Virus record (IMG/VR): IMGVR_UViG_3300045988_027174
Direction: 5' to 3' (one strand)
Length of the DNA: 18,923 nt
Origin: a virus
The translations under genes were made by a program, and so were the position numbers. Under the pieces are notes generated by a model. That model saw nothing but the letters and a program-made list of their open reading frames with translations. It had not been told where the DNA came from and did no database searches. This document shows positions 1-18,923 of this stretch, piece after piece (position 1 is the first letter of the stretch; each line of letters starts with the position of its first letter).

Positions 1-111
1 GTGGGAGGGGTGTGGGTTTGTGTGAAGATTTTCCCTTGTGGTTTTTTTTATTTGTGTATTATTTTTTTTTGTTCTGTGACGTCGTTGTCGCTTTGTTTTG
101 TTTATGCTTCT

Positions 112-140
112 ATTATATTTTTTTTACTCTTGCTTGTCAA
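112..140 (-). promoter_or_regulatory. Outward-facing consensus promoter in the left ITR (TTGACA-N17-TATAAT on the - strand)
   Basis: The + strand reads attata at 112-117 and tgtcaa at 135-140. On the - strand this is TTGACA, a 17-nt spacer, then TATAAT. Transcription would run toward position 1, with a predicted start near 105. Confidence 0.5.
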
Positions 141-150
141 CTTTTTTTAT

Positions 151-183
151 TTCGGGCGTGTCGTTTGTTTTCGGGCGTGTCGT
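151..183 (+). promoter_or_regulatory. Direct repeats TTCGGGCGTGTCGT x2, an operator-like element between the divergent ITR promoters
   Basis: ttcgggcgtgtcgt occurs at 151-164 and again at 170-183, a 19-bp period. The repeats sit over the -35 region of the inward promoter. They are mirrored at 18741-18773. Confidence 0.5.
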
Positions 184-192
184 GTTTTTTTG

Positions 193-201
193 TGTTATGA
201 T
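193..201 (+). promoter_or_regulatory. Extended -10 promoter (TGtTATGAT) for the ITR gene
   Basis: tgttatgat at 193-201 lies about 36 nt upstream of the ATG at 237. The SD aagggaaagga is at 217-227. No -35 match is present. Confidence 0.45.
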
Positions 202-236
202 GTGAGTATCAACTTCAAGGGAAAGGAAAAAATAAA

Positions 237-437
237 ATGATTAACAACAGCATCATCAAGGATTACGCTGAAGATTACATCCTGAACAGCGGTCAGGATC
301 TCAATGATTTCAACATTGATGTGATTGTTGAGAATCTGCATCATGTGGCGGTGGTTAATAATATGACTATCGAGGGTTATCAGGATTGTGATTCGTTTCC
401 GAGTGATGATTTTGTGGGAGCGTTTGAGGAGGTGTGA
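237..437 (+). CDS. ITR-encoded 66-aa hyper-acidic protein of unknown function (copy 1)
   Basis: ATG preceded by an AAGGGAAAGGA SD and followed by a hairpin terminator. Hand count gives 9 Asp and 5 Glu against 1 Lys and 0 Arg. An identical copy lies in the right ITR. Confidence 0.6.
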   Translation: MINNSIIKDYAEDYILNSGQDLNDFNIDVIVENLHHVAVVNNMTIEGYQDCDSFPSDDFVGAFEEV

Positions 438-448
438 TAGGTAATAGT

Positions 449-483
449 AAAGCCCCTAGGTGAGTAACCTAGGGGCTTTTCTT
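449..483 (+). terminator. Intrinsic terminator at the inner edge of the left ITR
   Basis: The stem pairs aaagcccctagg (449-460) with cctaggggcttt (468-479) around the loop tgagtaa. It is followed by tctt. Confidence 0.7.
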
Positions 484-509
484 GTGTCGTTTGTTTTACG
501 GCGTGTCGT
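484..509 (+). promoter_or_regulatory. Third copy of the GTGTCGTTTGTTTT-NN-GGCGTGTCGT module, just outside the ITR
   Basis: gtgtcgtttgttttacggcgtgtcgt at 484-509 matches gtgtcgtttgttttcgggcgtgtcgt at 157-182 at 24 of 26 positions. It ends 14 nt upstream of the TATAAT at 524-529. Confidence 0.5.
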
Positions 510-3497: not shown

Positions 3498-4454
3498 ATG
3501 TCTCGGAAGCAAAAGCATGTCAAGGCACGTCAGGCCGCACAGGCGCGTGCCGCACGCAATATTAAACAGCTTGGCGCTTACTCTCACTCGAATCTTGCAA
3601 AAACCGCCGACAAACAATTGGTCAATATCGCTAAAACGCTCGGCAAGGAATGGGAGAAACAGAAGAAACAAGCCATTGCGGAAGCGAAAGCAACCACCTA
3701 TCACGCCACCGCAGTCGAGAAGCCGACGAAAAAAGACATTATGTTTGCCCAGCGCACGCCCATCACTGACGCGCAGATAAAAGCGGAACCTGCGTCTAAA
3801 CGGCGCAAACTCTTGCGTCAGCAGCAGCGGAAGATCAATGCGGCACGGCAGAAGATCAGCGATTGGAACCGCGAACAGGCCATGCCGAAACGTAGTGTAT
3901 ATGATCAGCGCATGGCAGAACTTGAAGGCACTACGGGCGAGGGTTTCGGGCGTAACCAGATCATCCCTTCCAAGCTTACGGACTTTCTGCAAATGACCAA
4001 TGTCCTCTCGGATGAAGCATTCGTGCGCAGCCAATTGGAGAGCGGACACCGCAACGAACTGCGGGAGCAGATACATGATGCCGCCGAAATCTTGGGCTTG
4101 CGCACCGAACGGAAACGCGAACCGTCCAAAAAGCGGGGTAAGCAAAGCAAGGACTTGTACGGCGAACATGAGTGGCCGTCCTACATGTCGCGCGGACGTT
4201 ATGAAGTCTTTGAAAAAATTCTCGCCACCACGTTAGGGTCGAAACGGCTGAAACGATTCCGTAGTCTATCCAAAGCGCAAAAACGCGCGTTTATCGAACA
4301 GACGGACGCCCCCCGTATCGTGTTCGATTGGACGGTATATGACCCCGTCCGACACGGTTTTGCTTCGGTGTTCCGAGATAACAGCGAGGGGTATCAGCGT
4401 TCCCGCAAACAGTTCGACCGGTGGATGTCGGAAGCGGTCGCGCTGGAAAAGTAG
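3498..4454 (+). CDS. Putative terminal protein (replication primer), 318 aa
   Basis: The gene lies immediately upstream of the protein-primed polymerase, as in phi29. The protein is strongly basic and Lys/Arg/Gln-rich, especially at the N-terminus. The assignment rests on synteny and composition only. Confidence 0.6.
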   Translation: MSRKQKHVKARQAAQARAARNIKQLGAYSHSNLAKTADKQLVNIAKTLGKEWEKQKKQAIAEAKATTYHATAVEKPTKKDIMFAQRTPITDAQIKAEPASKRRKLLRQQQRKINAARQKISDWNREQAMPKRSVYDQRMAELEGTTGEGFGRNQIIPSKLTDFLQMTNVLSDEAFVRSQLESGHRNELREQIHDAAEILGLRTERKREPSKKRGKQSKDLYGEHEWPSYMSRGRYEVFEKILATTLGSKRLKRFRSLSKAQKRAFIEQTDAPRIVFDWTVYDPVRHGFASVFRDNSEGYQRSRKQFDRWMSEAVALEK

Positions 4455-4480
4455 CGGTTGAAAACAAGGGAAGTTATACT

Positions 4481-5932
4481 ATGGCGGTGAGCGATAATAG
4501 GGTAGGATTGTGGTGTGCGGATAACGTCATACGCTTTACGGACGGTACCGCATTGCGTGACATTACCGCGCCCAATCGCCTTTTGGCGTCCATCATGGCG
4601 GGCGGAAAACTCACCGTCTATATGACTGACCCCGACGTTTTAAGCCCGTTTATGGCTCACGTCGTGCACTCGCTCCCCCACAACGAACACAACGCGAATT
4701 TGAGCTGGGATGCGATAGTTTCCCAAAAGGGCAAGTTTTTTAGTTTTACCGTGCGTGTCGACCGTGAGAATTCCGCTCGTTTTTTCGATATATCGAATCT
4801 CTTGCGGGAAAACTGTAGGCTTACCATGACCGACACACAACTGCTCAATATTCTGCGTGAGTACGATAATCGTGGTTTGTGTAAGATTACGGCGGGCGGT
4901 GCAAGTATGGAGGCTTTCGCGTCCGGCGAGTGGAAATGGTATTACGACAAATTCCCGCAGCTTGACCCGGAGGATAAAAAGTCATTGCATGATGCTTATA
5001 TTGGCGGATTCATGACCGCAAAGGAAGGGGCGTATGATCGCGCTATCGACATTGACTGCAATAGCATGTATCCGTCCATACTGCGAGACGAATGGCTGCC
5101 ATGGGGCTTGCCGGAACCATACGACGGCAAATACGTGCAAGATGATGATATGCCGCTGCATTGCGACGAAATTACGTTCCGCGCGGAACTCAAGCCAAAC
5201 GGATACCCCTTTTTGCTTGACAACCGCAGTATCTACGGACTTAATAGGCTCACGTCTACTCGTGGTTATATTACGCGCGTATTGACCGATATAGATCAAC
5301 GGCTTTTATACGAGAATTATGAAGTGAGCGTCTACAAGTACATTAGGGGGTGGAAATTCCGACGCTCCAAAGGATTCTTCAGGTCGTTCGTCGATGAATG
5401 GGGGGGGTTGAAGCAGAAGGCGACGGGAGAGAAACGACAAATAGCAAAACTCATTATGAACGCCCTCGTGGGCAAGATGGCGAGTCTACCAAAAGGCTCG
5501 GTCATGCTCCCACTTTCTAAAGACGGCATCACCTTGGATTGGGATATCGCGCAACGTGAGGAGTCGAATCTGAAAACCGATTATCTGCCCGTGCCCGTAT
5601 GGGTCAATGCCTACGCGAGACGAAAGCTTATGGGCGTGTGCCACGCGAACGCCGACCGAATCTTGTACGCGAATACGGACGGGTGTATTTTGAGCGGCTG
5701 GGAGCCGGTGAAATCATGCGATATCCACCCCACCGAACTGGGCAAGTGGAAGATCGCCGCACGATACAAAAAATTGACTATCCTTGGAATAAATCGGTAT
5801 CAGGGATGGAGGGATGATAATGAGGTTGACGTGTGCATGGCTGGAAACATGTTTTCGGAACCTATCTCCTACGAGCAATTTCGGCATGGCGTGCAAGTCC
5901 TGGACGATTACGGTACATTGGTTATGCTATAA
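4481..5932 (+). CDS. Protein-primed family-B DNA polymerase, 483 aa
   Basis: ATG at 4481 follows the SD AAGGGAAG; the track starts the ORF at GTG 4421, inside the TP gene. Motif A is DIDCNSMYPS, motif B is KLIMNALVGK and motif C is YANTDG. GKYVQDDDMPLH parallels phi29 GKYVWDEDYPLH in TPR1, and a TPR2-length insert follows motif B. Confidence 0.92.
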   Translation: MAVSDNRVGLWCADNVIRFTDGTALRDITAPNRLLASIMAGGKLTVYMTDPDVLSPFMAHVVHSLPHNEHNANLSWDAIVSQKGKFFSFTVRVDRENSARFFDISNLLRENCRLTMTDTQLLNILREYDNRGLCKITAGGASMEAFASGEWKWYYDKFPQLDPEDKKSLHDAYIGGFMTAKEGAYDRAIDIDCNSMYPSILRDEWLPWGLPEPYDGKYVQDDDMPLHCDEITFRAELKPNGYPFLLDNRSIYGLNRLTSTRGYITRVLTDIDQRLLYENYEVSVYKYIRGWKFRRSKGFFRSFVDEWGGLKQKATGEKRQIAKLIMNALVGKMASLPKGSVMLPLSKDGITLDWDIAQREESNLKTDYLPVPVWVNAYARRKLMGVCHANADRILYANTDGCILSGWEPVKSCDIHPTELGKWKIAARYKKLTILGINRYQGWRDDNEVDVCMAGNMFSEPISYEQFRHGVQVLDDYGTLVML

Positions 5933-5933
5933 T
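5925..5933 (+). promoter_or_regulatory. Extended -10 promoter (TGcTATAAT) overlapping the polymerase stop codon
   Basis: tgctataat at 5925-5933. It has the same TGCTATAATA flavour as the promoter at 3419. Confidence 0.5.
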
Positions 5934-5939
5934 ACTTAC

Positions 5940-6105
5940 GTCTTGTGAGCGTCGATTTTCGACTGGGAACGACACGGGTCGGACTGCCACGGCTGAGAAT
6001 GCCGCCGACCATGACTTGCTACCGTGGCGGTAGTGCCCTACGATTATCAATCCGCGCTCTGATAGGACGATTCAGACCCTCCGTGATTGGAGGGTCATTT
6101 TATTT
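5940..6105 (+). ncRNA. Candidate structured non-coding RNA of about 165 nt (possible packaging-RNA analogue or terminated leader)
   Basis: The region is bracketed by the promoter at 5925-5933 and the terminator at 6075-6107. It holds no ORF with an SD; the only ATG opens an 11-codon frame. A 10-bp helix is possible between actgccacgg (5983-5992) and ccgtggcggt (6022-6031). Smaller helices include ttatca (6044-6049) with tgatag (6060-6065). Confidence 0.4.
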
Positions 6106-6107
6106 CT
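6075..6107 (+). terminator. Intrinsic terminator
   Basis: gaccctcc (6075-6082) pairs with ggagggtc (6089-6096) around the loop gtgatt. It is followed by attttatttct. Confidence 0.75.
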
Positions 6108-6116
6108 CCCGTCACG

Positions 6117-6125
6117 TGATATAAT
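6117..6125 (+). promoter_or_regulatory. Extended -10 promoter (TGaTATAAT), candidate late promoter
   Basis: tgatataat at 6117-6125 lies 37 nt upstream of the ATG at 6162. It is overlapped by the 8-bp palindrome tcacgtga (6112-6119). Confidence 0.55.
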
Positions 6126-6161
6126 TTTGATGGAATATCAACCAATACGAAGGGAGCTTGC

Positions 6162-6440
6162 ATGGCAGACCCAAACGCTGAAAGCGAGGAAACCACTACC
6201 CCACCGCCGACCGAAGAGGAACGGCAGACCGAAACCGTAGACGATGAAGTCAAGCCAAAAGAAGAACCGGAACCGGAACCGAAAAACGAGCCGGACGTGA
6301 GCGCGCGACTTGACAGCATCGAAAAGGAATTGGCCGCATTGAAGGCCATGATGGACGCGCTCGGCTACAATGACCCCGACCCCGACTCCGACGATGACGG
6401 CGATAACGACGGTGAATCCATCGAAGATTTGTTCGACTAA
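6162..6440 (+). CDS. Putative scaffolding protein, 92 aa, highly acidic
   Basis: The SD is GAAGGGAG. The gene lies immediately upstream of the capsid gene, like phi29 gene 7, and is of similar size. It has a Glu/Asp/Pro-rich N-terminus, a central helix (SIEKELAALKAMMDAL) and a C-terminal SIEDLFD reminiscent of the phi29 gp7 C-terminus. Confidence 0.55.
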   Translation: MADPNAESEETTTPPPTEEERQTETVDDEVKPKEEPEPEPKNEPDVSARLDSIEKELAALKAMMDALGYNDPDPDSDDDGDNDGESIEDLFD

Positions 6441-6458: not shown

Positions 6459-8180
6459 ATGTCCAATATTCGACCATTGGCCGGTAAGGGTGACGTTGAG
6501 ATCTTCAATGCCGTTCGTTCCGCCACCTCCCCTCAGTTCCAGGTGCGCATTCCTTCCGCCACGCAGGGCAACATTCGCAATGCGGTGGATACCATGCGCA
6601 ATTTCCCCTACCTTCGTGACGAATTTACGGGAGTGTTGATTCAGCGCCTCATCGGCCTGTATGTCCAACATGCGGACTGGGATGACCCGCTCAAGCTGAT
6701 CGGTTCCCCACGCACCCTCAAGCGCTATGGCTCCACCTATGAGCAGGCCGCGGTAGGCCTAGTCAAGGCACGCACCCGTAATTTCAATAAAGAATACTTG
6801 GGTGACGATGTGTATGGCCGCTATAATCTGCCAACCGCGTCCGTATTCCACCCGCTGACTTTCGACCATTATTACCCCGTCACAATCCCGGAAGACGCCT
6901 TGCTCACTGCTTTTGATGGCGAGTCCGGCATGTCGGATTACATTTCCGAGATCATGAACGCCCCGATCTTGAGCGATCGTAACGACATGTACCTGATGAA
7001 GGTGCAAACGTTTGCAGAATACGCACGCAAGGGCGGCTTCTACCGAGTCCACACCCCTGATGTGGGTGCCGCGAATTCCACCGAAGCGGATGCCAAGGGA
7101 TTGCTGCGTCTTATCCAGCAGACCGCCAACGAATTGAAAGCGTCTCCAATGTCGGCCATGCCGCGATATAACGCTATGTCGTGGGTAACTCCATGGCGCG
7201 ATTCGGAAGCGATTCTCTTCGCAACCCCGCAGGTGATCGCCGCGCTCAACGTCGAAGCCCTCGCCGCTGCCTTTAACATTGACAAGGTTAACGTGCCATA
7301 CCGTATTATCCCGATTCCGGAAGGAATGTTCGGCATTGGCGGTGCCGGCGGCAAGGTCCAGGCCGTGCTCACCACGGAAGACTTTTTCTTCTGCTGGGAT
7401 GAAATGCTCGAAACCACGAATAGCCCGGTCAATCCGATTGACGGCACTCGCAACATCTTCTACAAGCATCGTGGAAGCATTACCCCTAATCCTTTTGCCA
7501 ACGCAGTTCTGTTTTGGACTGGCGAAGGCTCTACCCAGTCCGTGACCTTGCCGGATACGCTCACCACCTCTAAGCCAGTCTTTGAACTGAAAGTACGGAA
7601 GTACGGGCAGTCATCGATTACCCCGCAGAACGTTTCCCGTGGAGGCTTGGTACAGGTGGTGTCCACCATTGAGAGCGCAAACAAGGCTAAAGCATCCTTC
7701 CAACCGGTCGGTATCACTTATGAGCTTGAGGGTGCAACCTCGCAATTTACCAGTATTGACAATGACGGTATTTTGCGTTGCGGACTCGATGAAACTGCAG
7801 AATCTCTCAAGGTTACAGCACAGGCTACTTATATTAATCCGGCAACACCGGAAATCGACCAGACTGTTTCCGCTGCGCTCGACGTTCCCGTGGTCGGGAC
7901 GTGGGTTGGCGGATTCAAGGTCGGCGCAATATCCAGCCTGCTCGTAGAAGGTGCTGATGCTGTCAAGGTAAGCGAATCCATCAAGCTAACCGCCTATGCC
8001 ATCAAATCGGATGGGTCAAGACAGGATGTGTCCAATCTTTGCATGTGGCAGACTTACGAGCGACGCGTAAAGGTGGACCAGACCGGCCTTGTGACCGGTA
8101 CTGATGCTGGGCCGGCCAGAATTGGGGCAACATTTGCTGAAGTGCATGGAGAAAAAACACTCACCGTCACCGCACAGTGA
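6459..8180 (+). CDS. Major capsid protein (phi29 gp8-like) with C-terminal Ig-like (Big_2-type) domains, 573 aa
   Basis: Several blocks parallel phi29 gp8 as I recall it: EIFNAVRS, ALLTAFDGESGMSDYISEIMNA, ALNVEALAAAFNIDK and FANAVLFWTGE. The C-terminus (LTAYAIKSDGSRQDVSNLCMWQT...VDQTGLVTG...GPARIGATF) fits a bacterial Ig-like domain. Confidence 0.9.
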   Translation: MSNIRPLAGKGDVEIFNAVRSATSPQFQVRIPSATQGNIRNAVDTMRNFPYLRDEFTGVLIQRLIGLYVQHADWDDPLKLIGSPRTLKRYGSTYEQAAVGLVKARTRNFNKEYLGDDVYGRYNLPTASVFHPLTFDHYYPVTIPEDALLTAFDGESGMSDYISEIMNAPILSDRNDMYLMKVQTFAEYARKGGFYRVHTPDVGAANSTEADAKGLLRLIQQTANELKASPMSAMPRYNAMSWVTPWRDSEAILFATPQVIAALNVEALAAAFNIDKVNVPYRIIPIPEGMFGIGGAGGKVQAVLTTEDFFFCWDEMLETTNSPVNPIDGTRNIFYKHRGSITPNPFANAVLFWTGEGSTQSVTLPDTLTTSKPVFELKVRKYGQSSITPQNVSRGGLVQVVSTIESANKAKASFQPVGITYELEGATSQFTSIDNDGILRCGLDETAESLKVTAQATYINPATPEIDQTVSAALDVPVVGTWVGGFKVGAISSLLVEGADAVKVSESIKLTAYAIKSDGSRQDVSNLCMWQTYERRVKVDQTGLVTGTDAGPARIGATFAEVHGEKTLTVTAQ

Positions 8181-10526: not shown

Positions 10527-10537
10527 GGACGGTGATT

Positions 10538-11476
10538 ATGGGTAAACGCAATAATGCGAGGAAGGCCGCGCACTGGGACAATCAGAGCGTTTTAGGCTCA
10601 ATGTGGGGCAATCTTAATTTGCCCGAAATGCGGCAAAGTCTACGCATCAACCAATATATGAAATTGATCGAAATGTTGGCCGTAAGCCGGTTTAAATGGA
10701 TTAATCTACCTCCGTATATCGATGAAAGATATTTGGAATTGACTCTATTTGAGAACGGTTTGGCACTGTTTTTCCCCGATAAACGTAAGGGGGTCAACCG
10801 CTTTATGGTAACATCCGGCAATATTGGCGGTGTGAACAATTATAATAACCCTACCAGCTTTCAGCCTGTCGCTACCAATTATTCGCACCCGCAGATTGGC
10901 TCGAAGGAATGCGTGCCCATCTGGGACAATCAATTGCGTTGCACCATGATCGACGTCATGTGGAATTATGCGACACGATTGGCTATCGCTGACCGCGCTT
11001 TGGACGTGAATTTGGATAATATCAGCGTGCCGCTGATTATCGCCACGTCAGAGACGAACAAGCTCACCGCCCAAAATCTCATGAAAGCGAGAGAAGATGG
11101 CGACCCCTACATTTACACATACGATTCGGCGGACATTACCGGCATGTTCCAGACATTTCCCAACGTCACCCCTTTCCTAGCGGATAAAATCATCACCACC
11201 AAAACCCAGATTTGGAACGAGTTAGTCAACTATCTTGGCATTGACAATAGTACGACGGAAAAGAAGGAACGGCTGCTTGAGTCGGAAGTCACTGCAGGCA
11301 ATAGTCGTACGAACGTTTTTCGCCTAAGCTATCTTAAATCTCGTCAGCAGGCGTGCGATACGATTAACAGGCTGTGGCCGCAAATGGCCGACTCAGGCTA
11401 CCCCATCGGCATCGAATGGAATGATACCACGTCCGGTGGTCTATTGGACGTAGAAGGCAATAAGGAAGAAGAATAA
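10538..11476 (+). CDS. Portal (head-tail connector) protein, phi29 gp10-like, 312 aa
   Basis: ATG at 10538 lies 8 nt after AGGA; the track lists GTG 10532 as the start. FKWINLPPYIDERYLE parallels phi29 FEWENLPPTINPSFLE. WNELVNYLGIDNSTTEKKERLLESEV parallels [26 protein letters not shown]. Confidence 0.9.
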   Translation: MGKRNNARKAAHWDNQSVLGSMWGNLNLPEMRQSLRINQYMKLIEMLAVSRFKWINLPPYIDERYLELTLFENGLALFFPDKRKGVNRFMVTSGNIGGVNNYNNPTSFQPVATNYSHPQIGSKECVPIWDNQLRCTMIDVMWNYATRLAIADRALDVNLDNISVPLIIATSETNKLTAQNLMKAREDGDPYIYTYDSADITGMFQTFPNVTPFLADKIITTKTQIWNELVNYLGIDNSTTEKKERLLESEVTAGNSRTNVFRLSYLKSRQQACDTINRLWPQMADSGYPIGIEWNDTTSGGLLDVEGNKEEE

Positions 11477-16185: not shown

Positions 16186-16194
16186 TGATATAAT
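16186..16194 (+). promoter_or_regulatory. Extended -10 promoter (TGaTATAAT)
   Basis: tgatataat at 16186-16194 lies 5 nt after the tail lysin stop codon. It has the same GTGATATAAT flavour as the promoter at 6117. Confidence 0.5.
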
Positions 16195-16243
16195 AAATGT
16201 TGTCGGCATGTGATAACTTCCCTTGAGTCGACCGTAACTAATA

Positions 16244-16290
16244 GGGGAGCGTAACGGTGGTCATGACGTTACGCTCCCCATTATTCTTTA
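16244..16290 (+). terminator. Strong intrinsic terminator between the promoter at 16186 and the ATPase gene
   Basis: A 13-bp stem pairs ggggagcgtaacg (16244-16256) with cgttacgctcccc (16267-16279) around a 10-nt loop. It is followed by attattcttt. Confidence 0.75.
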
Positions 16291-16304
16291 GGAAGTGAGC
16301 AAGC

Positions 16305-17372
16305 ATGGCGTTGCAAACATTGGGCGAAGACGACTACTACGATCTGCATAATCTGCTCACCCGTAACGCTCCGTGGAATTTCATTATCGGCGCACGTGGA
16401 TTAGGCAAGACGTTTGCAGCAAAAAGGTATGGCATCAAAGAGTATATTAAGCACGGCTACGAGTTTATTTACTTGCGCCGCACTGACGTAGAACAGCACC
16501 GGAAGGAAACGTTTTTCAAAGACATTCAAGAATTTTTCCCCTCCTACGAGTTTCGCGTGAACGGCGAAAAAGGGCAGATTCATAAAACGTCATGGGAAGA
16601 AAAAGATTGGCGCACATGCTGCTACTTCGTCGCACTCTCACAAGCTGGCGGACTGAAGTCAGTAGCCTACCCTAAAGTACACTTGATTATTTTCGATGAA
16701 ATCTTCCCCGATAACCTTAGATTTTTAAGTAACGAAGTAAACTCGTTTTCTGAATTTTATAATACCGTGGATAGGTGGCAGGATAGGACAAAAGTACTGT
16801 TTCTATCCAACGCAGTGCAAAAAGCGAACCCCTACTTTGCAAAATACCGGCTTGACATTGGCGCACAGCAAGCGAACCAACAACAATACAAATTATACTG
16901 CAGTGGCTTCGTGTGTCTAGAACTGGCGGACTATGGCGGTTTCTCCGCGAAAGTCGCGCAATCAAAGTTCGGCAGATTCTTGGAACAATACGACGGCGAC
17001 TACGCCGACTACGCGATTCGTAATAAATTCCGAGATGAGTCTGACACTTTACTGGCTCCAATTCCCAGCGATGGAGAGCTGTCCTACATTTTGGACACCA
17101 CCGACTACGCGCGTTTCGGCATATGGATATCCGTGTCCGAACGCGACGGGCATGTTTCACAATATGTTTCACGACGTATCCCCAAAGACAATACTCGCCC
17201 CGTCTACACATTCGACCCCAATCACGTTGACGAAAAAACATGGTACGTCAAAAAATCTGACGATATCATACGAAGACTCACCACAGGCTATCGACTAGGT
17301 AAAATCAGATTCGACGATTCACAAGTCAAGGCCGATTTCGGCCTGATCATCGGAGAATTACTAGGAAAATAG
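16305..17372 (+). CDS. DNA packaging (encapsidation) ATPase, phi29 gp16-like, 355 aa
   Basis: Walker A is IIGARGLGKT and Walker B is HLIIFDE. NFIIGARGLGKTFAAKRYGIKEYIKHGYEFIYLRR parallels phi29 gp16 NFVIGARGIGKSYAMKVYPINRFIKYGEQFIYVRR as I recall it. Confidence 0.9.
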   Translation: MALQTLGEDDYYDLHNLLTRNAPWNFIIGARGLGKTFAAKRYGIKEYIKHGYEFIYLRRTDVEQHRKETFFKDIQEFFPSYEFRVNGEKGQIHKTSWEEKDWRTCCYFVALSQAGGLKSVAYPKVHLIIFDEIFPDNLRFLSNEVNSFSEFYNTVDRWQDRTKVLFLSNAVQKANPYFAKYRLDIGAQQANQQQYKLYCSGFVCLELADYGGFSAKVAQSKFGRFLEQYDGDYADYAIRNKFRDESDTLLAPIPSDGELSYILDTTDYARFGIWISVSERDGHVSQYVSRRIPKDNTRPVYTFDPNHVDEKTWYVKKSDDIIRRLTTGYRLGKIRFDDSQVKADFGLIIGELLGK

Positions 17373-17757: not shown

Positions 17758-18429
17758 ATGAATATACAAGAATGGATGAACTCAGTAAACGGACAAGTTA
17801 TCGACATGGACGGCGCATACGGCGGACAATGCTGGGACCTATGGAGTAGCTACGCACGAAACGTCTACAGCATTCCAGCCGCCGACACCAACACTGTAGA
17901 CGGATACGCCGCAAGCGTCTATTCCGCACGGTATGATCGCTCCCAAGCATTGCAAAACACATTCAGCCGAGAGAGCGCCAACTATACGCCAACCTACGGG
18001 GACGTGGCGTTTTGGAACGGCGCGGGCATGAATCACGTCGCCATTGTAATTCGAGACAATGGTAACGGGACTCTTAACACTATGTCGCAGAATCCGACCA
18101 GGGCAGGATATGTGACCATCACCAAAAACGGTATTATCGGATACTTCCACCCACGCACGGCAAACACGGCAACACCAGCAAACAACAATGTGACCATCAT
18201 TCCACGCACCTACAAGGTCAACGTGGACACGCTTAACGTACGTTCTGCACCTTCGACCTCAGCACAAGTCGTAGCCCAATACCATTACGGTCAAACCGTC
18301 GACCTCGCAGAAGGTGGCACGATCGCAGACGGATACATTTGGGCACACTACACAGGCGGCTCAGGAGCAACACGATACGTAGCCTTATCTCCAGCCGACA
18401 AATCAACATGGTACCTCGTATTCGCCTAA
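17758..18429 (+). CDS. Endolysin with an N-terminal CHAP domain and a C-terminal SH3b cell-wall-binding domain, 223 aa
   Basis: The CHAP signature is DMDGAYGGQCWDLW ... GDVAFW ... HVAIV ... QNP. The C-terminal YKVNVDTLNVRSAPSTSAQVVAQYHYGQTVDL...DGYIWAHY is SH3-like. The gene follows the holin by 1 nt. Confidence 0.88.
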   Translation: MNIQEWMNSVNGQVIDMDGAYGGQCWDLWSSYARNVYSIPAADTNTVDGYAASVYSARYDRSQALQNTFSRESANYTPTYGDVAFWNGAGMNHVAIVIRDNGNGTLNTMSQNPTRAGYVTITKNGIIGYFHPRTANTATPANNNVTIIPRTYKVNVDTLNVRSAPSTSAQVVAQYHYGQTVDLAEGGTIADGYIWAHYTGGSGATRYVALSPADKSTWYLVFA

Positions 18430-18440
18430 ATTAACAGCAT

Positions 18441-18475
18441 AAGAAAAGCCCCTAGGTTACTCACCTAGGGGCTTT
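18441..18475. terminator. Bidirectional terminator hairpin at the inner edge of the right ITR
   Basis: This is the same hairpin as 449-483. On the + strand it lies 12 nt after the endolysin stop and is followed by ttactatt. On the - strand it follows the right copy of the ITR gene with a ttttctt tract. Confidence 0.65.
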
Positions 18476-18486
18476 ACTATTACCTA

Positions 18487-18687
18487 TCACACCTCCTCAA
18501 ACGCTCCCACAAAATCATCACTCGGAAACGAATCACAATCCTGATAACCCTCGATAGTCATATTATTAACCACCGCCACATGATGCAGATTCTCAACAAT
18601 CACATCAATGTTGAAATCATTGAGATCCTGACCGCTGTTCAGGATGTAATCTTCAGCGTAATCCTTGATGATGCTGTTGTTAATCAT
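18487..18687 (-). CDS. ITR-encoded 66-aa hyper-acidic protein (copy 2)
   Basis: The translation is identical to 237-437, with the same SD, promoter and terminator, mirrored. Confidence 0.6.
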   Translation of the reverse strand: MINNSIIKDYAEDYILNSGQDLNDFNIDVIVENLHHVAVVNNMTIEGYQDCDSFPSDDFVGAFEEV

Positions 18688-18722
18688 TTTATTTTTTCCT
18701 TTCCCTTGAAGTTGATACTCAC

Positions 18723-18731
18723 ATCATAACA
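18723..18731 (-). promoter_or_regulatory. Extended -10 promoter (TGtTATGAT) for the right ITR gene copy
   Basis: Mirror image of 193-201. Confidence 0.45.
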
Positions 18732-18783
18732 CAAAAAAACACGACACGCCCGAAAACAAACGACACGCCCGAAATAAAAAAAG

Positions 18784-18812
18784 TTGACAAGCAAGAGTAA
18801 AAAAAATATAAT
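18784..18812 (+). promoter_or_regulatory. Outward-facing consensus promoter in the right ITR (TTGACA-N17-TATAAT)
   Basis: ttgaca at 18784-18789, a 17-nt spacer, and tataat at 18807-18812. It points toward the right terminus and mirrors 112-140. Confidence 0.5.
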
Positions 18813-18923
18813 AGAAGCATAAACAAAACAAAGCGACAACGACGTCACAGAACAAAAAAAAATAATACACAAATAAAAAAAACCACAAGGGAAAATCTTC
18901 ACACAAACCCACACCCCTCCCAC

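What the first reader, a model, noticed from the sequence alone, without database searches (positions are those of the whole stretch)
5925..6107. Promoter-to-terminator non-coding unit of about 165 nt between the polymerase and the late genes, a candidate packaging-RNA analogue
A perfect extended -10 (TGCTATAAT, 5925-5933) is followed about 140 nt later by a clean intrinsic terminator (6075-6107). A separate extended -10 at 6117-6125 then serves the late genes, so the intervening segment looks like an autonomous transcription unit. It has no plausible ORF and is G+C-richer than neighbouring intergenic DNA. It can form a 10-bp helix (5983-5992 with 6022-6031) enclosing a 29-nt loop, plus further hairpins. 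phi29-type motors use a pRNA of about 120-174 nt that bridges the connector and the gp16 ATPase. This genome encodes clear gp10 and gp16 homologues, but no pRNA is otherwise evident. An alternative reading is a lambda 6S-like terminated leader that requires antitermination for late expression.
Basis: partly seen in the sequence, partly recalled or inferred. Interest (0 to 1): 0.75.

Follow-up and report, generated by a model that had tools for sequence, protein, structure and literature searches.

The report
Prohead-RNA-like small RNA gene in Bifidobacterium phage
A small Bifidobacterium phage related to phi29 carries a self-contained gene for a folded RNA of about 165 nt whose shape matches, element by element, the packaging RNA of the phi29 DNA-packaging motor, an RNA so far known only from Bacillus phages.

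Summary
The window is a complete phi29-like Bifidobacterium phage genome. Between the DNA polymerase and the head genes lie an extended -10 promoter (5925-5933), about 125 nt of non-coding structured sequence, an intrinsic terminator (6075-6107) and a second promoter (6117-6125). This layout is kept in 105-106 of 106 distinct relatives. The RNA was found in 80 of 80 relatives fetched through their capsid gene alone.

All eight helices of the fold carry compensatory changes. The fold has an end-closing helix and a three-way junction. One arm is a 9-bp helix with a 1-nt bulge, a 7-nt bulge on the 5' side only, and a 4-bp hairpin. The other arm is a second hairpin joined to the closing helix with no spacer. 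This is the topology of phi29 pRNA.

The last four bulge bases (GCCA) complement the hairpin apex (UGGC), as CE-loop AACC complements D-loop GGUU in phi29. One of these pairs covaries in five independent lineages.

There is no match to Rfam RF00044 and no sequence similarity to known pRNAs. Function is inferred, not shown. My best reading is a packaging-RNA counterpart (about 0.6). The rivals are a late-operon leader or an unrelated small RNA.

The parts
5925..5933 (+). Extended -10 promoter TGCTATAAT of the RNA gene. It overlaps the DNA polymerase stop codon (TAA, 5930-5932).
   Evidence: TGYTATRAT is kept in 105 of 106 distinct copies. The Leu codon is always CTA or TTA, the stop is TAA or TGA, and Met-to-Val changes keep the TG. 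This indicates selection on the promoter beyond coding. BadAztec phages have the same arrangement.
5940..6103 (+). Predicted RNA of about 164 nt. The 5' end is inferred at about 7 nt after the -10 element and the 3' end in the U-rich tract.
   Evidence: Inference from the promoter and terminator positions. The covariation-supported fold has -61.4 kcal/mol, against an MFE of -66.1 (z = -3.65).
5939..5952 (+). 5' strand of the end-closing helix P1 (P1a 5939-5944, P1b 5947-5952), the counterpart of the A helix.
   Evidence: Pairs with 6054-6069. Four of 6 P1a pairs and 3 of 6 P1b pairs show double changes, for example GAGCG:CGCUC to GAGCA:UGCUC.
6054..6069 (+). 3' strand of P1 (P1b 6054-6059, P1a 6064-6069), with a conserved asymmetric internal loop NNAU.
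5959..5967 (+). 5' strand of P2 (UCG, then ACU, then GGG), which extends the closing helix up to the junction.
   Evidence: Pairs with 6036-6043 (CCC, then UA, then CGA). It is invariant in close relatives. Compensatory C-G to U-A and G-C to A-U changes appear in divergent members. A local hairpin 5952-5955/5959-5962 is an unresolved rival for the UCG part.
6036..6043 (+). 3' strand of P2. It follows P5 with no spacer.
5973..5982 (+). 5' strand of P3, the counterpart of the C helix: 2-3 bp, a 1-nt bulge (G5976), then 6 bp.
   Evidence: Pairs with 6005-6013. Six of its 8 pairs (2 in the outer part, 4 in the 6-bp part) show double changes, for example GGCCGG/CCGGCC, GGUUGG/CCAACC and GAUCGG/CCGAUU.
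6005..6013 (+). 3' strand of P3, contiguous with the 3' strand of P4.
5983..5989 (+). 7-nt bulge ACUGCCA on the 5' strand only, the counterpart of the CE loop. Its last four bases, GCCA, complement the P5 apex.
   Evidence: The pair 5986:6028 reads G-C 81, G.U 11, A-U 8 and A.C 0 among 100 distinct sequences. The A-U state arose in 5 separate lineages.
5990..6004 (+). P4 hairpin, the counterpart of the E hairpin: a 4-bp stem (CGGC/GCCG) with the nearly invariant 7-nt loop UGAGAAU.
   Evidence: L095 carries the compensatory CGAC/GUCG.
6017..6035 (+). P5 hairpin, the counterpart of the D hairpin: an 8-bp stem with the loop UGG. The apex G6024-UGG-C6028 complements the bulge.
   Evidence: Seven of 8 pairs show double changes. 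The lower stem is replaced wholesale in L097 and L123 while the apex stays the same.
6075..6107 (+). Intrinsic terminator, the counterpart of pRNA domain II: a 9-bp stem, the loop GUGAUU (reported as a 4-nt loop with a closing G.U pair) and a U-rich tail.
   Evidence: Stem changes are compensatory, for example CCCUCC/GGAGGG to CCCCGC/GCGGGG. It is present in 106 of 106 copies. No credible covarying antiterminator was found.
6117..6125 (+). Separate extended -10 promoter TGATATAAT for the late (head) genes.
   Evidence: TGRTATRAT is kept in 106 of 106 copies.
10538..11476 (+). Portal (upper collar connector), the presumed docking partner. Its N-terminus MGKRNNARKAAH is basic.
   Evidence: PHROG 2038. 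PDB 1H5W (phi29 gp10) at E = 9e-29. N-terminus. The comparison with the RKR motif of gp10 rests on my own knowledge.
16305..17372 (+). gp16-type packaging ATPase, the presumed partner of the closing helix.
   Evidence: PHROG 2150. PDB 7JQQ (phi29 gp16) at E = 3e-36, aligned over residues 11-341 and so including the C-terminal domain.

Best explanation
The segment is a self-contained gene for a structured small RNA of about 165 nt. I think it most likely works as the prohead (packaging) RNA of this phi29-like Bifidobacterium phage.

**Steps shown by sequence evidence**
- Host RNA polymerase can start at the extended -10 element that overlaps the polymerase stop codon.
- The transcript ends at the intrinsic terminator.
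- The first 125-130 nt fold into an end-closing helix (P1 and P2) that leads to a three-way junction.
- One arm is P3, then a 7-nt bulge on the 5' side only, then hairpin P4. The other arm is hairpin P5.

**Steps inferred by analogy with phi29**
- The four bulge bases GCCA (5986-5989) pair with UGGC (6025-6028) at the apex of P5 in a neighbouring molecule, which closes a ring of RNAs on the portal vertex of the prohead.
- The junction-distal loops, including the invariant UGAGAAU loop of P4, contact the portal N-termini and the capsid.
- The protruding closing helices recruit the gp16-like ATPase, which has no portal-binding module of its own.
- The terminator hairpin corresponds to the dispensable domain II of pRNA.
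For: **Phage context**
- This is a phi29-type phage with a 496-bp inverted terminal repeat, a type-B polymerase, a gp10-like portal and a full-length gp16-like ATPase.

**Autonomous unit**
- The promoter is conserved in 105 of 106 distinct copies, and the terminator and the second promoter in 106 of 106.

**Ubiquity**
- Model R1 finds the RNA in 80 of 80 loci that were retrieved through the capsid protein only. It is always on the same strand, about 390-530 nt upstream of the capsid gene.

**Structure**
- 97.9% of cells are paired.
- 24 of 38 pairs show changes on both sides, against 10.0 +/- 1.8 in shuffles (0 of 500 shuffles reach 24). Slid controls give 3-8.
- Every helix has at least one compensatory change.

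**Topology compared with the Rfam RF00044 consensus**

| Element | phi29 pRNA | This RNA |
|---|---|---|
| Closing helix | 22 bp, interrupted by bulges | P1 + P2, 18 bp (20 with G5945.U6063 and U5946-A6062), interrupted |
| C helix | 5 bp, 1-nt bulge, 4 bp | 2-3 bp, 1-nt bulge, 6 bp |
| Bulge on 5' side only | 9 nt | 7 nt |
| E hairpin | 4 bp, 6-nt loop | 4 bp, 7-nt loop |
| E and C 3' strands | contiguous | contiguous |
| D hairpin | 6 bp, 5-nt loop | 8 bp, 3-nt loop (7 bp and 5 nt if the closing pair opens) |
| Spacer between D and A | 0 nt | 0 nt |

**Kissing geometry**
- The last 4 bulge bases, next to the E-like hairpin, pair with the last 4 bases of a 5-nt apex. In phi29 the same positions are A45-C48 and G82-U85.
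- The pair 5986:6028 reads G-C 81, G.U 11, A-U 8 and never A.C. The A-U state arose in 5 lineages, each nearer to a G-bearing sequence than to another A lineage.
- The apex is conserved even where the P5 stem is rewritten.

**Synteny**
- In phi29 the pRNA gene lies downstream of TP and DNAP, is co-oriented with them, and has its own promoter. The arrangement here is the same.

**Other**
- The predicted length is about 164 nt, against 174 nt for phi29 pRNA (PMC11476376).
- No conserved ORF is present.
- The RNA matches no Rfam family.
- The only hits of its motif in the representative bacterial and archaeal genomes are chance matches.
Against: - RF00044 gives no hit even at E <= 10, and there is no sequence similarity to known pRNAs. 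Model R1 does not hit phi29.
- In the plain secondary structure the P5 loop has only 3 nt. A 4-bp contact needs the closing pair G6024:C6028 to open, and that pair itself shows a compensatory G-C to A-U change in 3 sequences.
- A5989U (5 sequences) and U6025C (2 sequences) are not compensated.
- Sequence alone cannot tell an intermolecular contact from an intramolecular pseudoknot or a conformational switch. The complementarity can extend to 10 bp.
- In BadAztec-type relatives the syntenic structured RNA is followed by a hairpin without a U tract and by no second promoter. There it is a leader of the late operon. R1 does not recognise that RNA.
- A second conserved promoter-hairpin unit precedes the ATPase gene, so promoter-proximal hairpins may be a general regulatory device of this phage.
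- There are no expression or biochemical data.
Confidence: 0.6

Rival explanations
1. The element is a cis-acting leader or attenuator of the late (head) operon. The structured domain binds a phage or host factor, or a ligand, that controls read-through of the terminator at 6075-6107. This would resemble the lambda pR'-tR' (6S) unit, or a riboswitch or protein-dependent attenuator. The 10-bp alternative helix would act as the switch.
For: - The element sits directly upstream of the scaffold-like and capsid genes.
- In BadAztec1 and BadAargau2 the syntenic RNA is followed by a conserved hairpin without a U tract and by no second promoter, so late genes must be co-transcribed with it.
- Av-1 has a promoter, hairpins and a terminator directly before an RBS.
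- A second conserved promoter-hairpin-gene unit lies upstream of the ATPase gene.
- Two mutually exclusive foldings exist: P4 with P5 at -61.4 kcal/mol, and the 10-bp helix at -53.5 kcal/mol.
Against: - A separate extended -10 promoter behind the terminator is kept in 106 of 106 copies, so late genes do not depend on read-through.
- P1 closes the domain independently of the terminator.
- No segment that could pair with either terminator strand covaries with it. The best candidates consist almost entirely of G.U pairs.
- No riboswitch or leader family of Rfam matches.
- The outer pairs of the alternative helix break where P5 covaries.
Confidence: 0.15
2. The element is a trans-acting phage small RNA with a role unrelated to packaging. 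Examples would be a regulator or sponge of host or phage mRNAs, an RNA-polymerase-binding or protein-sequestering RNA, or an anti-defence decoy. On this reading the resemblance to pRNA is a coincidence of a common three-way-junction fold.
For: - It is an autonomous, terminated and strongly conserved structured RNA gene.
- Three-way junctions are common in RNA.
- There is no detectable homology to pRNA.
- The invariant single-stranded motifs UGAGAAU, GAUUUU and UACGAU could bind any protein or RNA.
- Other actinobacterial phi29-like phages that I inspected (Reje, Anjali, Av-1, OP549880) have no recognisable counterpart.
Against: - The match to pRNA goes beyond a generic junction. It includes a bulge on the 5' side only, placed between a 9-bp helix with a 1-nt bulge and a 4-bp hairpin. 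It also includes a zero-nucleotide D-to-A join, a covarying 4-nt bulge-to-apex complementarity at the same relative positions, a 3' terminator domain, and synteny with TP and DNAP.
- The RNA was found only in phages that encode gp10-type and gp16-type motor proteins.
- No conserved complementarity to a target was noticed. This was not searched systematically.
Confidence: 0.2
3. The conservation reflects DNA-level signals only, such as promoters, operator sites or a replication or packaging site. On this reading there is no functional RNA.
For: Two promoters and a terminator lie within 200 bp.
Against: - The substitution pattern is that of RNA helices. G-C, A-U and G.U interchange in 24 of 38 pairs and the signal is strand-specific, far above the shuffled and slid controls.
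- G.U pairs would be A.C on the other strand.
Confidence: 0.03

Closest known systems
phi29-family prohead/packaging RNA (pRNA; Rfam RF00044 Phage_pRNA)
   Same: - It is encoded by a protein-primed podophage with a gp10 portal and a gp16 ATPase.
- It has its own promoter and terminator, and a similar size (about 164 nt against 174 nt).
- A 5'/3' closing helix with internal loops leads to a three-way junction.
- The C-like helix has a 1-nt bulge. It is followed by a bulge on the 5' side only and by a 4-bp E-like hairpin.
- A D-like hairpin joins the closing helix with no spacer.
- Four bulge bases complement the apex of the D-like hairpin.
- A 3' hairpin domain is present.
- The gene lies downstream of TP and DNAP and is co-oriented with them.
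   Different: - There is no sequence similarity and no hit by RF00044.
- The host is an actinobacterium, not a Bacillus.
- The gene lies in the middle of the genome, between the polymerase and the head genes, and not at the genome end. The early module here is not inverted relative to the late genes.
- The junction strands are longer: 5 nt and 3-7 nt, against 1 nt and UUU.
- The D-like loop has 3 nt unless its closing pair opens.
- The upper part of the closing helix (P2) competes with a small local hairpin.
- Prohead binding and oligomerisation are untested.
Lambda 6S RNA (the pR'-tR' terminated leader that is read through under Q antitermination)
   Same: A constitutive promoter is followed after about 150-200 nt by an intrinsic terminator, directly upstream of the late genes.
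   Different: - A conserved second promoter sits behind the terminator here.
- No Q-like antiterminator was identified.
- The RNA has an elaborate covarying fold that a simple terminated leader does not need.
Syntenic structured RNA of the Badaztecvirus Bifidobacterium phages (BadAztec1, BadAargau2), which is not annotated
   Same: - The polymerase stop codon lies inside a TGCTATAGT or TGCTATAAT promoter.
- An RNA of about 105 nt is closed by GUGAGCG/CGCUCAC and by a second helix with compensatory changes (ACAGUGG/CCGCUGU against GCGGUGG/CCGCCGC).
- A conserved GC-rich hairpin follows, and then the scaffold-like and capsid genes.
   Different: - Model R1 does not detect it, even with filters off.
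- There is no U tract and no second promoter.
- The inner fold cannot be resolved with the two distinct sequences available.

Membership tests
phi29 pRNA (Rfam RF00044 Phage_pRNA) | Scores at or above the gathering threshold (100 bits) of the RF00044 covariance model. | tested here: not met
   There is no hit in the whole window at gathering thresholds. There is also none in 5700-6300 at E <= 10. As a positive control, phi29 scores 145.4 bits.
phi29 pRNA (Rfam RF00044 Phage_pRNA) | The 5' and 3' ends pair in a long, interrupted A helix. | tested here: met
   P1a, P1b and P2 span 5939-5967 and 6036-6069 (18 bp, or 20 with two further pairs in this genome). They carry compensatory changes. The predicted start at about 5940 falls at the first pair.
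phi29 pRNA (Rfam RF00044 Phage_pRNA) | A three-way junction of the A, C and D helices, with no unpaired base between D and A. | tested here: met
   G6035 of P5 is followed directly by C6036 of P2. The other junction strands have 5 nt and 3-7 nt. RF00044 consensus.
phi29 pRNA (Rfam RF00044 Phage_pRNA) | A C helix with a single-base bulge, then a bulge on the 5' strand only (CE loop), then a short E hairpin whose 3' strand is contiguous with that of C. | tested here: met
   P3 is 2-3 bp, then G5976, then 6 bp. The bulge is 5983-5989. P4 has 4 bp and a 7-nt loop. G6004 and C6005 are adjacent. All parts covary.
phi29 pRNA (Rfam RF00044 Phage_pRNA) | CE-loop bases are complementary to D-loop bases and covary with them (interlocking loops). 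| tested here: met
   GCCA 5986-5989 faces UGGC 6025-6028. Counts by pair: 5986:6028 is G-C 81, G.U 11, A-U 8 and A.C 0, with the A-U state in 5 independent lineages. 5987:6027 is C-G in all 100 sequences. 5988:6026 is C-G 94 and U.G 6. 5989:6025 is A-U 93 and unpaired 7.
phi29 pRNA (Rfam RF00044 Phage_pRNA) | The loop-loop contact is intermolecular and builds a ring on the prohead. | not testable with these tools
   This needs native gels or analytical ultracentrifugation with complementary mutants, or cryo-EM of proheads.
phi29 pRNA (Rfam RF00044 Phage_pRNA) | The RNA binds the portal vertex of proheads and is required for DNA packaging (RNase-sensitive packaging). | not testable with these tools
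   Only the partners are shown: a gp10-like portal with a basic N-terminus and a full-length gp16-like ATPase.
phi29 pRNA (Rfam RF00044 Phage_pRNA) | A separate transcription unit downstream of the early replication genes and co-oriented with them. | tested here: met
   In phi29 the order on the minus strand is 3 (TP), 2 (DNAP), 1, small ORFs, promoter A1, pRNA. In the window the order is DNAP, promoter 5925, RNA, terminator. The position at the genome end is not shared.
Lambda-type terminated late leader (6S RNA / Q antitermination) | The late genes have no promoter of their own downstream of the terminator, so their expression requires read-through. | tested here: not met
   TGRTATRAT lies 20-30 nt after the terminator in 106 of 106 copies.
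Riboswitch or attenuator leader | An aptamer or sensor domain shares bases with an antiterminator that competes with the terminator. | tested here: not met
   P1 closes 5 nt before the terminator. A scan for upstream segments that pair with either terminator strand found only G.U-rich matches without real covariation. No Rfam riboswitch or leader matches.

The most novel reading that the evidence does not exclude
This RNA is a true evolutionary homologue of pRNA. On that reading the RNA component of the phi29 packaging motor is not a peculiarity of Bacillus phages. It would predate the split between the phi29-like phages of Firmicutes and of Actinobacteria. Its ancestral position would be directly downstream of the terminal-protein and polymerase module, and the Bacillus phages would have moved it to the genome end by inverting that module. 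The syntenic BadAztec RNA would then be a third, further diverged form.
Probability: 0.45. Interest if true: 0.85.

Novelty: new variant of a known kind. Interest (0 to 1): 0.78.

Why it matters
**Current state of knowledge**
- pRNA is the only RNA known to be an essential part of a viral DNA-packaging motor.
- Reviews state that it is known only from phi29 and related Bacillus phages (PMC5066667, PMC11476376).
- Its origin is openly debated: a relic of an RNA world, a replacement for a lost terminase domain, or a captured cellular RNA (PMC11476376).

**What a counterpart in Bifidobacterium phages would add**
- It has the same architecture but an unrelated sequence.
- It would show which features of the RNA are truly required.
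- It would give an outgroup for the evolution of the motor.
- It would supply new self-assembling three-way-junction and kissing modules for RNA nanotechnology.
- It would explain how gp16-type ATPases dock in phi29-like phages outside Bacillus.

**Testability**
- Cultured isolates exist (BD811P1-3 on B. dentium, BP1 on B. pseudocatenulatum), so the question can be tested directly.
- The family would be a new entry for Rfam, with about 100 distinct sequences collected here.

Tried and rejected
- **Rfam.** Scans at gathering thresholds and at E <= 10 gave nothing except a spurious mir-223 match on the terminator.
- **MFE fold.** Its inner pairing UUCGACU:GGUCGGA is rejected. 5977-5982 covaries with 6005-6010 instead, while 5958-5964 is invariant.
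It is rejected for its outer pairs (4-13 unpaired sequences) and retained for its centre as a tertiary contact.
- **Local hairpin 5952-5955/5959-5962 against P2a.** This stays unresolved. Two compensatory sequences from one lineage favour P2a and one favours the hairpin.
- **Antiterminator search.** Only G.U-rich pseudo-matches were found.
- **Model R1 on other phages.** It gave no hit on BadAztec (with filters on and off), Av-1, phi29, Reje, Anjali or OP549880.
- **Bacterial genomes.** The motif pattern gave three chance hits in representative bacterial and archaeal genomes, and R1 rejected them.
- **Intermediate lineages.** The search through capsid homologues listed only proteins that are 80-88% identical. 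IMG/VR added no new BadAztec relatives.
- **Outward-facing consensus promoter in the inverted terminal repeat.** I considered it as an alternative pRNA locus. Its run-off RNA would be A-rich and unstructured.
- **Promoter-hairpin unit upstream of the ATPase gene.** I considered it as another alternative locus. It has only two tandem hairpins and is not pRNA-like.
Full report
**Context**

The window is a complete linear phage genome of 18.9 kb.
- It has 496-bp inverted terminal repeats, and all major genes lie on the + strand.
- It encodes a type-B DNA polymerase (4421-5932), a phi29-type major head protein (6459-8180), an upper collar connector (10532-11476), a lower collar protein and a gp16-type packaging ATPase (16305-17372).
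- The ATPase aligns with full-length phi29 gp16 (PDB 7JQQ, E = 3e-36, residues 11-341). The portal aligns with the phi29 connector (1H5W, E = 9e-29).
- The nearest cultured relatives are Bifidobacterium phages BP1 (81% DNA identity) and BD811P1-3 (about 75%).

**The observation**

- TGCTATAAT is at 5925-5933 and TGATATAAT at 6117-6125.
- A 9-bp, G+C-rich terminator stem lies at 6075-6096 and is followed by ATTTTATTTC.
- TGNTATAAT occurs five times in the genome, always on the + strand and at gene boundaries. Shuffles give 0.67 (0 of 200 shuffles reach five).
- The first promoter overlaps the polymerase stop codon. The last sense codon is always CTA or TTA, the stop is TAA or TGA, and Met-to-Val changes keep the TG. 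The promoter is therefore under selection beyond coding.
- The segment is the longest internal non-coding gap (229 nt). Its G+C is 0.51, against 0.27-0.45 for the other gaps, with one at 0.50.
- ORFs of 59 and 66 aa overlap it in this genome. In relatives the core length varies from 137 to 142 nt through indels that are not multiples of three, and in each frame at least some relatives carry stops, so no frame is kept across the family.

**Conservation**

- The intergenic segment is alignable in all six GenBank relatives, with 84% mean column identity.
- A two-block motif search found it in 51 IMG/VR contigs and 25 metagenome contigs.
- To remove the circularity of a motif search, I fetched 80 loci through the capsid protein alone. 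A covariance model built from the first set (R1) found the RNA in 80 of 80. It was always on the same strand, about 390-530 nt upstream of the capsid gene, at 84-164 bits.
- Among 106 distinct copies with full flanks, the upstream extended -10 is present in 105, and the terminator and the downstream extended -10 in all 106.
- The motif hits in representative bacterial and archaeal genomes are chance matches. No Rfam family matches.

**Secondary structure**

The model, in window coordinates:

| Element | Coordinates |
|---|---|
| P1a | 5939-5944 / 6064-6069 |
| P1b | 5947-5952 / 6054-6059 |
| P2 | UCG 5959-5961 / CGA 6041-6043 and GGG 5965-5967 / CCC 6036-6038 |
| P3 | 5973-5974 / 6012-6013, then bulged G5976, then 5977-5982 / 6005-6010 |
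| Bulge | ACUGCCA, 5983-5989 |
| P4 | 5990-5993 / 6001-6004, loop UGAGAAU |
| P5 | 6017-6024 / 6028-6035, loop UGG |
| Terminator | stem 6075-6083 / 6088-6096, U-rich tail to 6107 |

Support for the model:
- On the capsid-anchored alignment (73 distinct sequences), 97.9% of cells are standard pairs.
- 24 of 38 pairs have changes on both sides, against 10.0 +/- 1.8 in shuffles (0 of 500 shuffles reach 24). With slid partners the figure is 3-8. The motif-derived sets give the same picture.
- Helices that are invariant in close relatives acquire compensatory changes in divergent members. P2a shows C-G to U-A, P2b shows G-C to A-U, and P4 shows CGGC/GCCG to CGAC/GUCG.
- The model has -61.4 kcal/mol, against an MFE of -66.1.
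- The inner pairings of the MFE are contradicted by covariation.
- One ambiguity remains. A 4-bp local hairpin (5952-5955/5959-5962) competes with P2a, and the data do not decide between them.

- The 10-bp complementarity between 5983-5992 and 6022-6031 is real. It is mutually exclusive with P4 and P5, and it crosses P3.
- Its two outer pairs fail in 4-13 sequences, exactly where P5 shows compensatory changes. The closing pair of P5 itself changes from G-C to A-U in three metagenome sequences. P5 is therefore a genuine hairpin.
- The centre of the complementarity is nevertheless kept. Among 100 distinct sequences:

| Pair | Counts |
|---|---|
| 5986:6028 | G-C 81, G.U 11, A-U 8, A.C 0 |
| 5987:6027 | C-G 100 |
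| 5988:6026 | C-G 94, U.G 6 |
| 5989:6025 | A-U 93, unpaired 7 |

- The eight A-U sequences fall into five lineages. Each lineage is closer to a G-bearing sequence than to any other A lineage.
- In L097 and L123 the lower stem of P5 is rewritten (UACGGGCG/UGCCCGUA), but the apex CG-UGG-UG stays and still matches the bulge.
- The best reading is a 4-bp contact between the 3' end of the bulge (GCCA) and the apex of P5 (UGGC). It could be a pseudoknot or a contact between molecules.

**Comparison with pRNA**

As a control, RF00044 finds phi29 pRNA at 145 bits, and the output shows its consensus structure.

| Element | phi29 pRNA (RF00044) | This RNA |
|---|---|---|
| Closing helix | A helix, 22 bp with bulges | 18 interrupted bp (20 with two further pairs in this genome) |
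| First junction strand | 1 nt | 5 nt |
| C helix | 5 bp, 1-nt bulge, 4 bp | 2-3 bp, 1-nt bulge, 6 bp |
| Bulge on 5' side only | 9 nt | 7 nt |
| E hairpin | 4 bp, 6-nt loop, 3' strand contiguous with C | 4 bp, 7-nt loop, 3' strand contiguous with P3 |
| Second junction strand | UUU | 3-7 nt |
| D hairpin | 6 bp, 5-nt loop | 8 bp, 3-nt loop (7 bp and 5 nt if the closing pair opens) |
| Spacer before the A helix | none | none |

- In phi29 the last four bulge bases (A45-C48), next to the E helix, pair with the last four D-loop bases (G82-U85). Here the last four bulge bases, next to P4, pair with the last four bases of the 5-nt apex.
- Both RNAs carry a 3' hairpin domain beyond the closing helix. 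Their sizes are about 164 nt and 174 nt (PMC11476376).
- Synteny also agrees. On the phi29 minus strand the order is SSB, TP, DNAP, small ORFs, promoter A1, pRNA. Here it is DNAP, promoter, RNA. The difference is that in phi29 the whole early module is inverted relative to the late genes, which places pRNA at the genome end.
- The portal N-terminus is basic (MGKRNNARKAAH). The N-terminus of phi29 gp10 is also basic and binds pRNA. That comparison rests on my own knowledge and is weak evidence.

**What speaks against the pRNA reading**

- There is no sequence similarity, and neither covariance model recognises the other family.
- The contact needs the closing pair of P5 to open, and seven sequences carry an uncompensated change in it.
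- Whether the contact is inter- or intramolecular cannot be read from sequence.
- In Badaztecvirus phages (37% capsid identity) the same position holds a structured RNA of about 105 nt.
  - It starts from a promoter that again overlaps the polymerase stop codon.
  - It is closed by GUGAGCG/CGCUCAC and by a second helix with compensatory changes.
  - It is followed by a conserved hairpin without a U tract and by no second promoter, so there it is a leader of the late operon.
  - R1 does not detect it, and two distinct sequences cannot resolve its core.
- A second conserved promoter-hairpin unit lies in front of the ATPase gene.
- Other actinobacterial phi29-like phages that I inspected show promoter and terminator arrangements but no recognisable counterpart.

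**Rival explanations**

- *A lambda-6S-type or riboswitch-type leader.* It is disfavoured by the universally conserved second promoter, by the independence of P1 from the terminator, and by the lack of a covarying antiterminator.
- *An unrelated trans-acting small RNA.* It cannot be excluded. It would have to share with pRNA, by coincidence, a detailed topology, a covarying bulge-to-apex contact, the synteny and the phage type.
- *A purely DNA-level explanation.* It is incompatible with the strand-specific G.U-tolerant covariation.

**Literature**

- Full-text searches found no report of a pRNA or of any non-coding RNA in Bifidobacterium phages.
- Reviews state that pRNA is known only from phi29 and related Bacillus phages (PMC5066667; PMC11476376).

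**Verdict**

The feature is real: a conserved and autonomous structured small-RNA gene, not matched by any Rfam family and not reported in the literature I searched. It works most probably like pRNA (confidence about 0.6). It fails the formal Rfam membership test. I therefore classify it as a new variant of a known kind and not as a member of RF00044. Whether it is homologous or convergent remains open.

Noticed in passing
window 16186-16304: A second promoter-then-hairpin unit lies directly upstream of the packaging ATPase gene. It consists of TGATATAAT (16186-16194), a first stem GUCGGC...GCCGAC, and a 13-bp hairpin (16243-16281) with the conserved loop GUGGUCAUGA and a U-rich tail, followed by the RBS. 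The promoter and the hairpin are kept in 11 of 11 relatives that cover the region. The stem shows compensatory changes (GGGGAGCGUAACG to GGGGAGUAUGACG). Its function is unknown. It may be an attenuator or a translational control element of the ATPase gene.
   Followed up: partly
window 1-496 and 18428-18923: The inverted terminal repeats are 496 bp long and 99% identical. Each carries a 66-aa ORF with a strong terminator. Each also carries a perfect TTGACA-17-TATAAT promoter that faces outward, towards the genome end (140-112 on the minus strand and 18784-18812 on the plus strand). The run-off RNA of about 105 nt would be A-rich and unstructured.
   Followed up: partly
window 1278, 3419, 5925, 6117, 16186: All five TGNTATAAT motifs lie on the + strand at gene boundaries, against 0.67 expected by chance. 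This outlines the transcription map of the phage. A perfect TTGACA-17-TATAAT also lies at 2528-2556, inside ORF 2077-2595.
   Followed up: no
L057:2857-3030 (BadAztec1), L059:2871-3044 (BadAargau2): A syntenic, unannotated structured RNA occurs in honeybee-gut Bifidobacterium phages. The promoter overlaps the polymerase stop codon. The RNA has long closing helices with compensatory changes. A conserved 12-bp hairpin follows, without a U tract and without a second promoter. Model R1 does not detect it.
   Followed up: partly
L091:5018-5160 (Arthrobacter phage Anjali): The motif GACGCCGGACAGC occurs twice. The two copies flank about 75 nt plus a strong terminator (5104-5133) in a 300-nt gap between an RHH-protein gene and the late genes. 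This is a similar layout of promoter, short RNA, terminator and second promoter.
   Followed up: no
L058:2305-2432 (Actinomyces phage Av-1): The annotated promoter is followed by two hairpins and by a 14-bp terminator with U5, immediately before the RBS of ORF8, upstream of the head gene (z = -5.0).
   Followed up: no
window 6162-6440: A 92-aa, very acidic, Pro/Glu/Asp-rich protein is encoded between the RNA gene and the capsid gene. It has no PHROG match. It occupies the position of the phi29 scaffolding protein gp7.
   Followed up: no
L097:477-616, L123:977-1116: The RNA evolves faster than the capsid protein. These two members are about 60% identical to the window RNA, while their capsid proteins are 86% identical.
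   Followed up: partly
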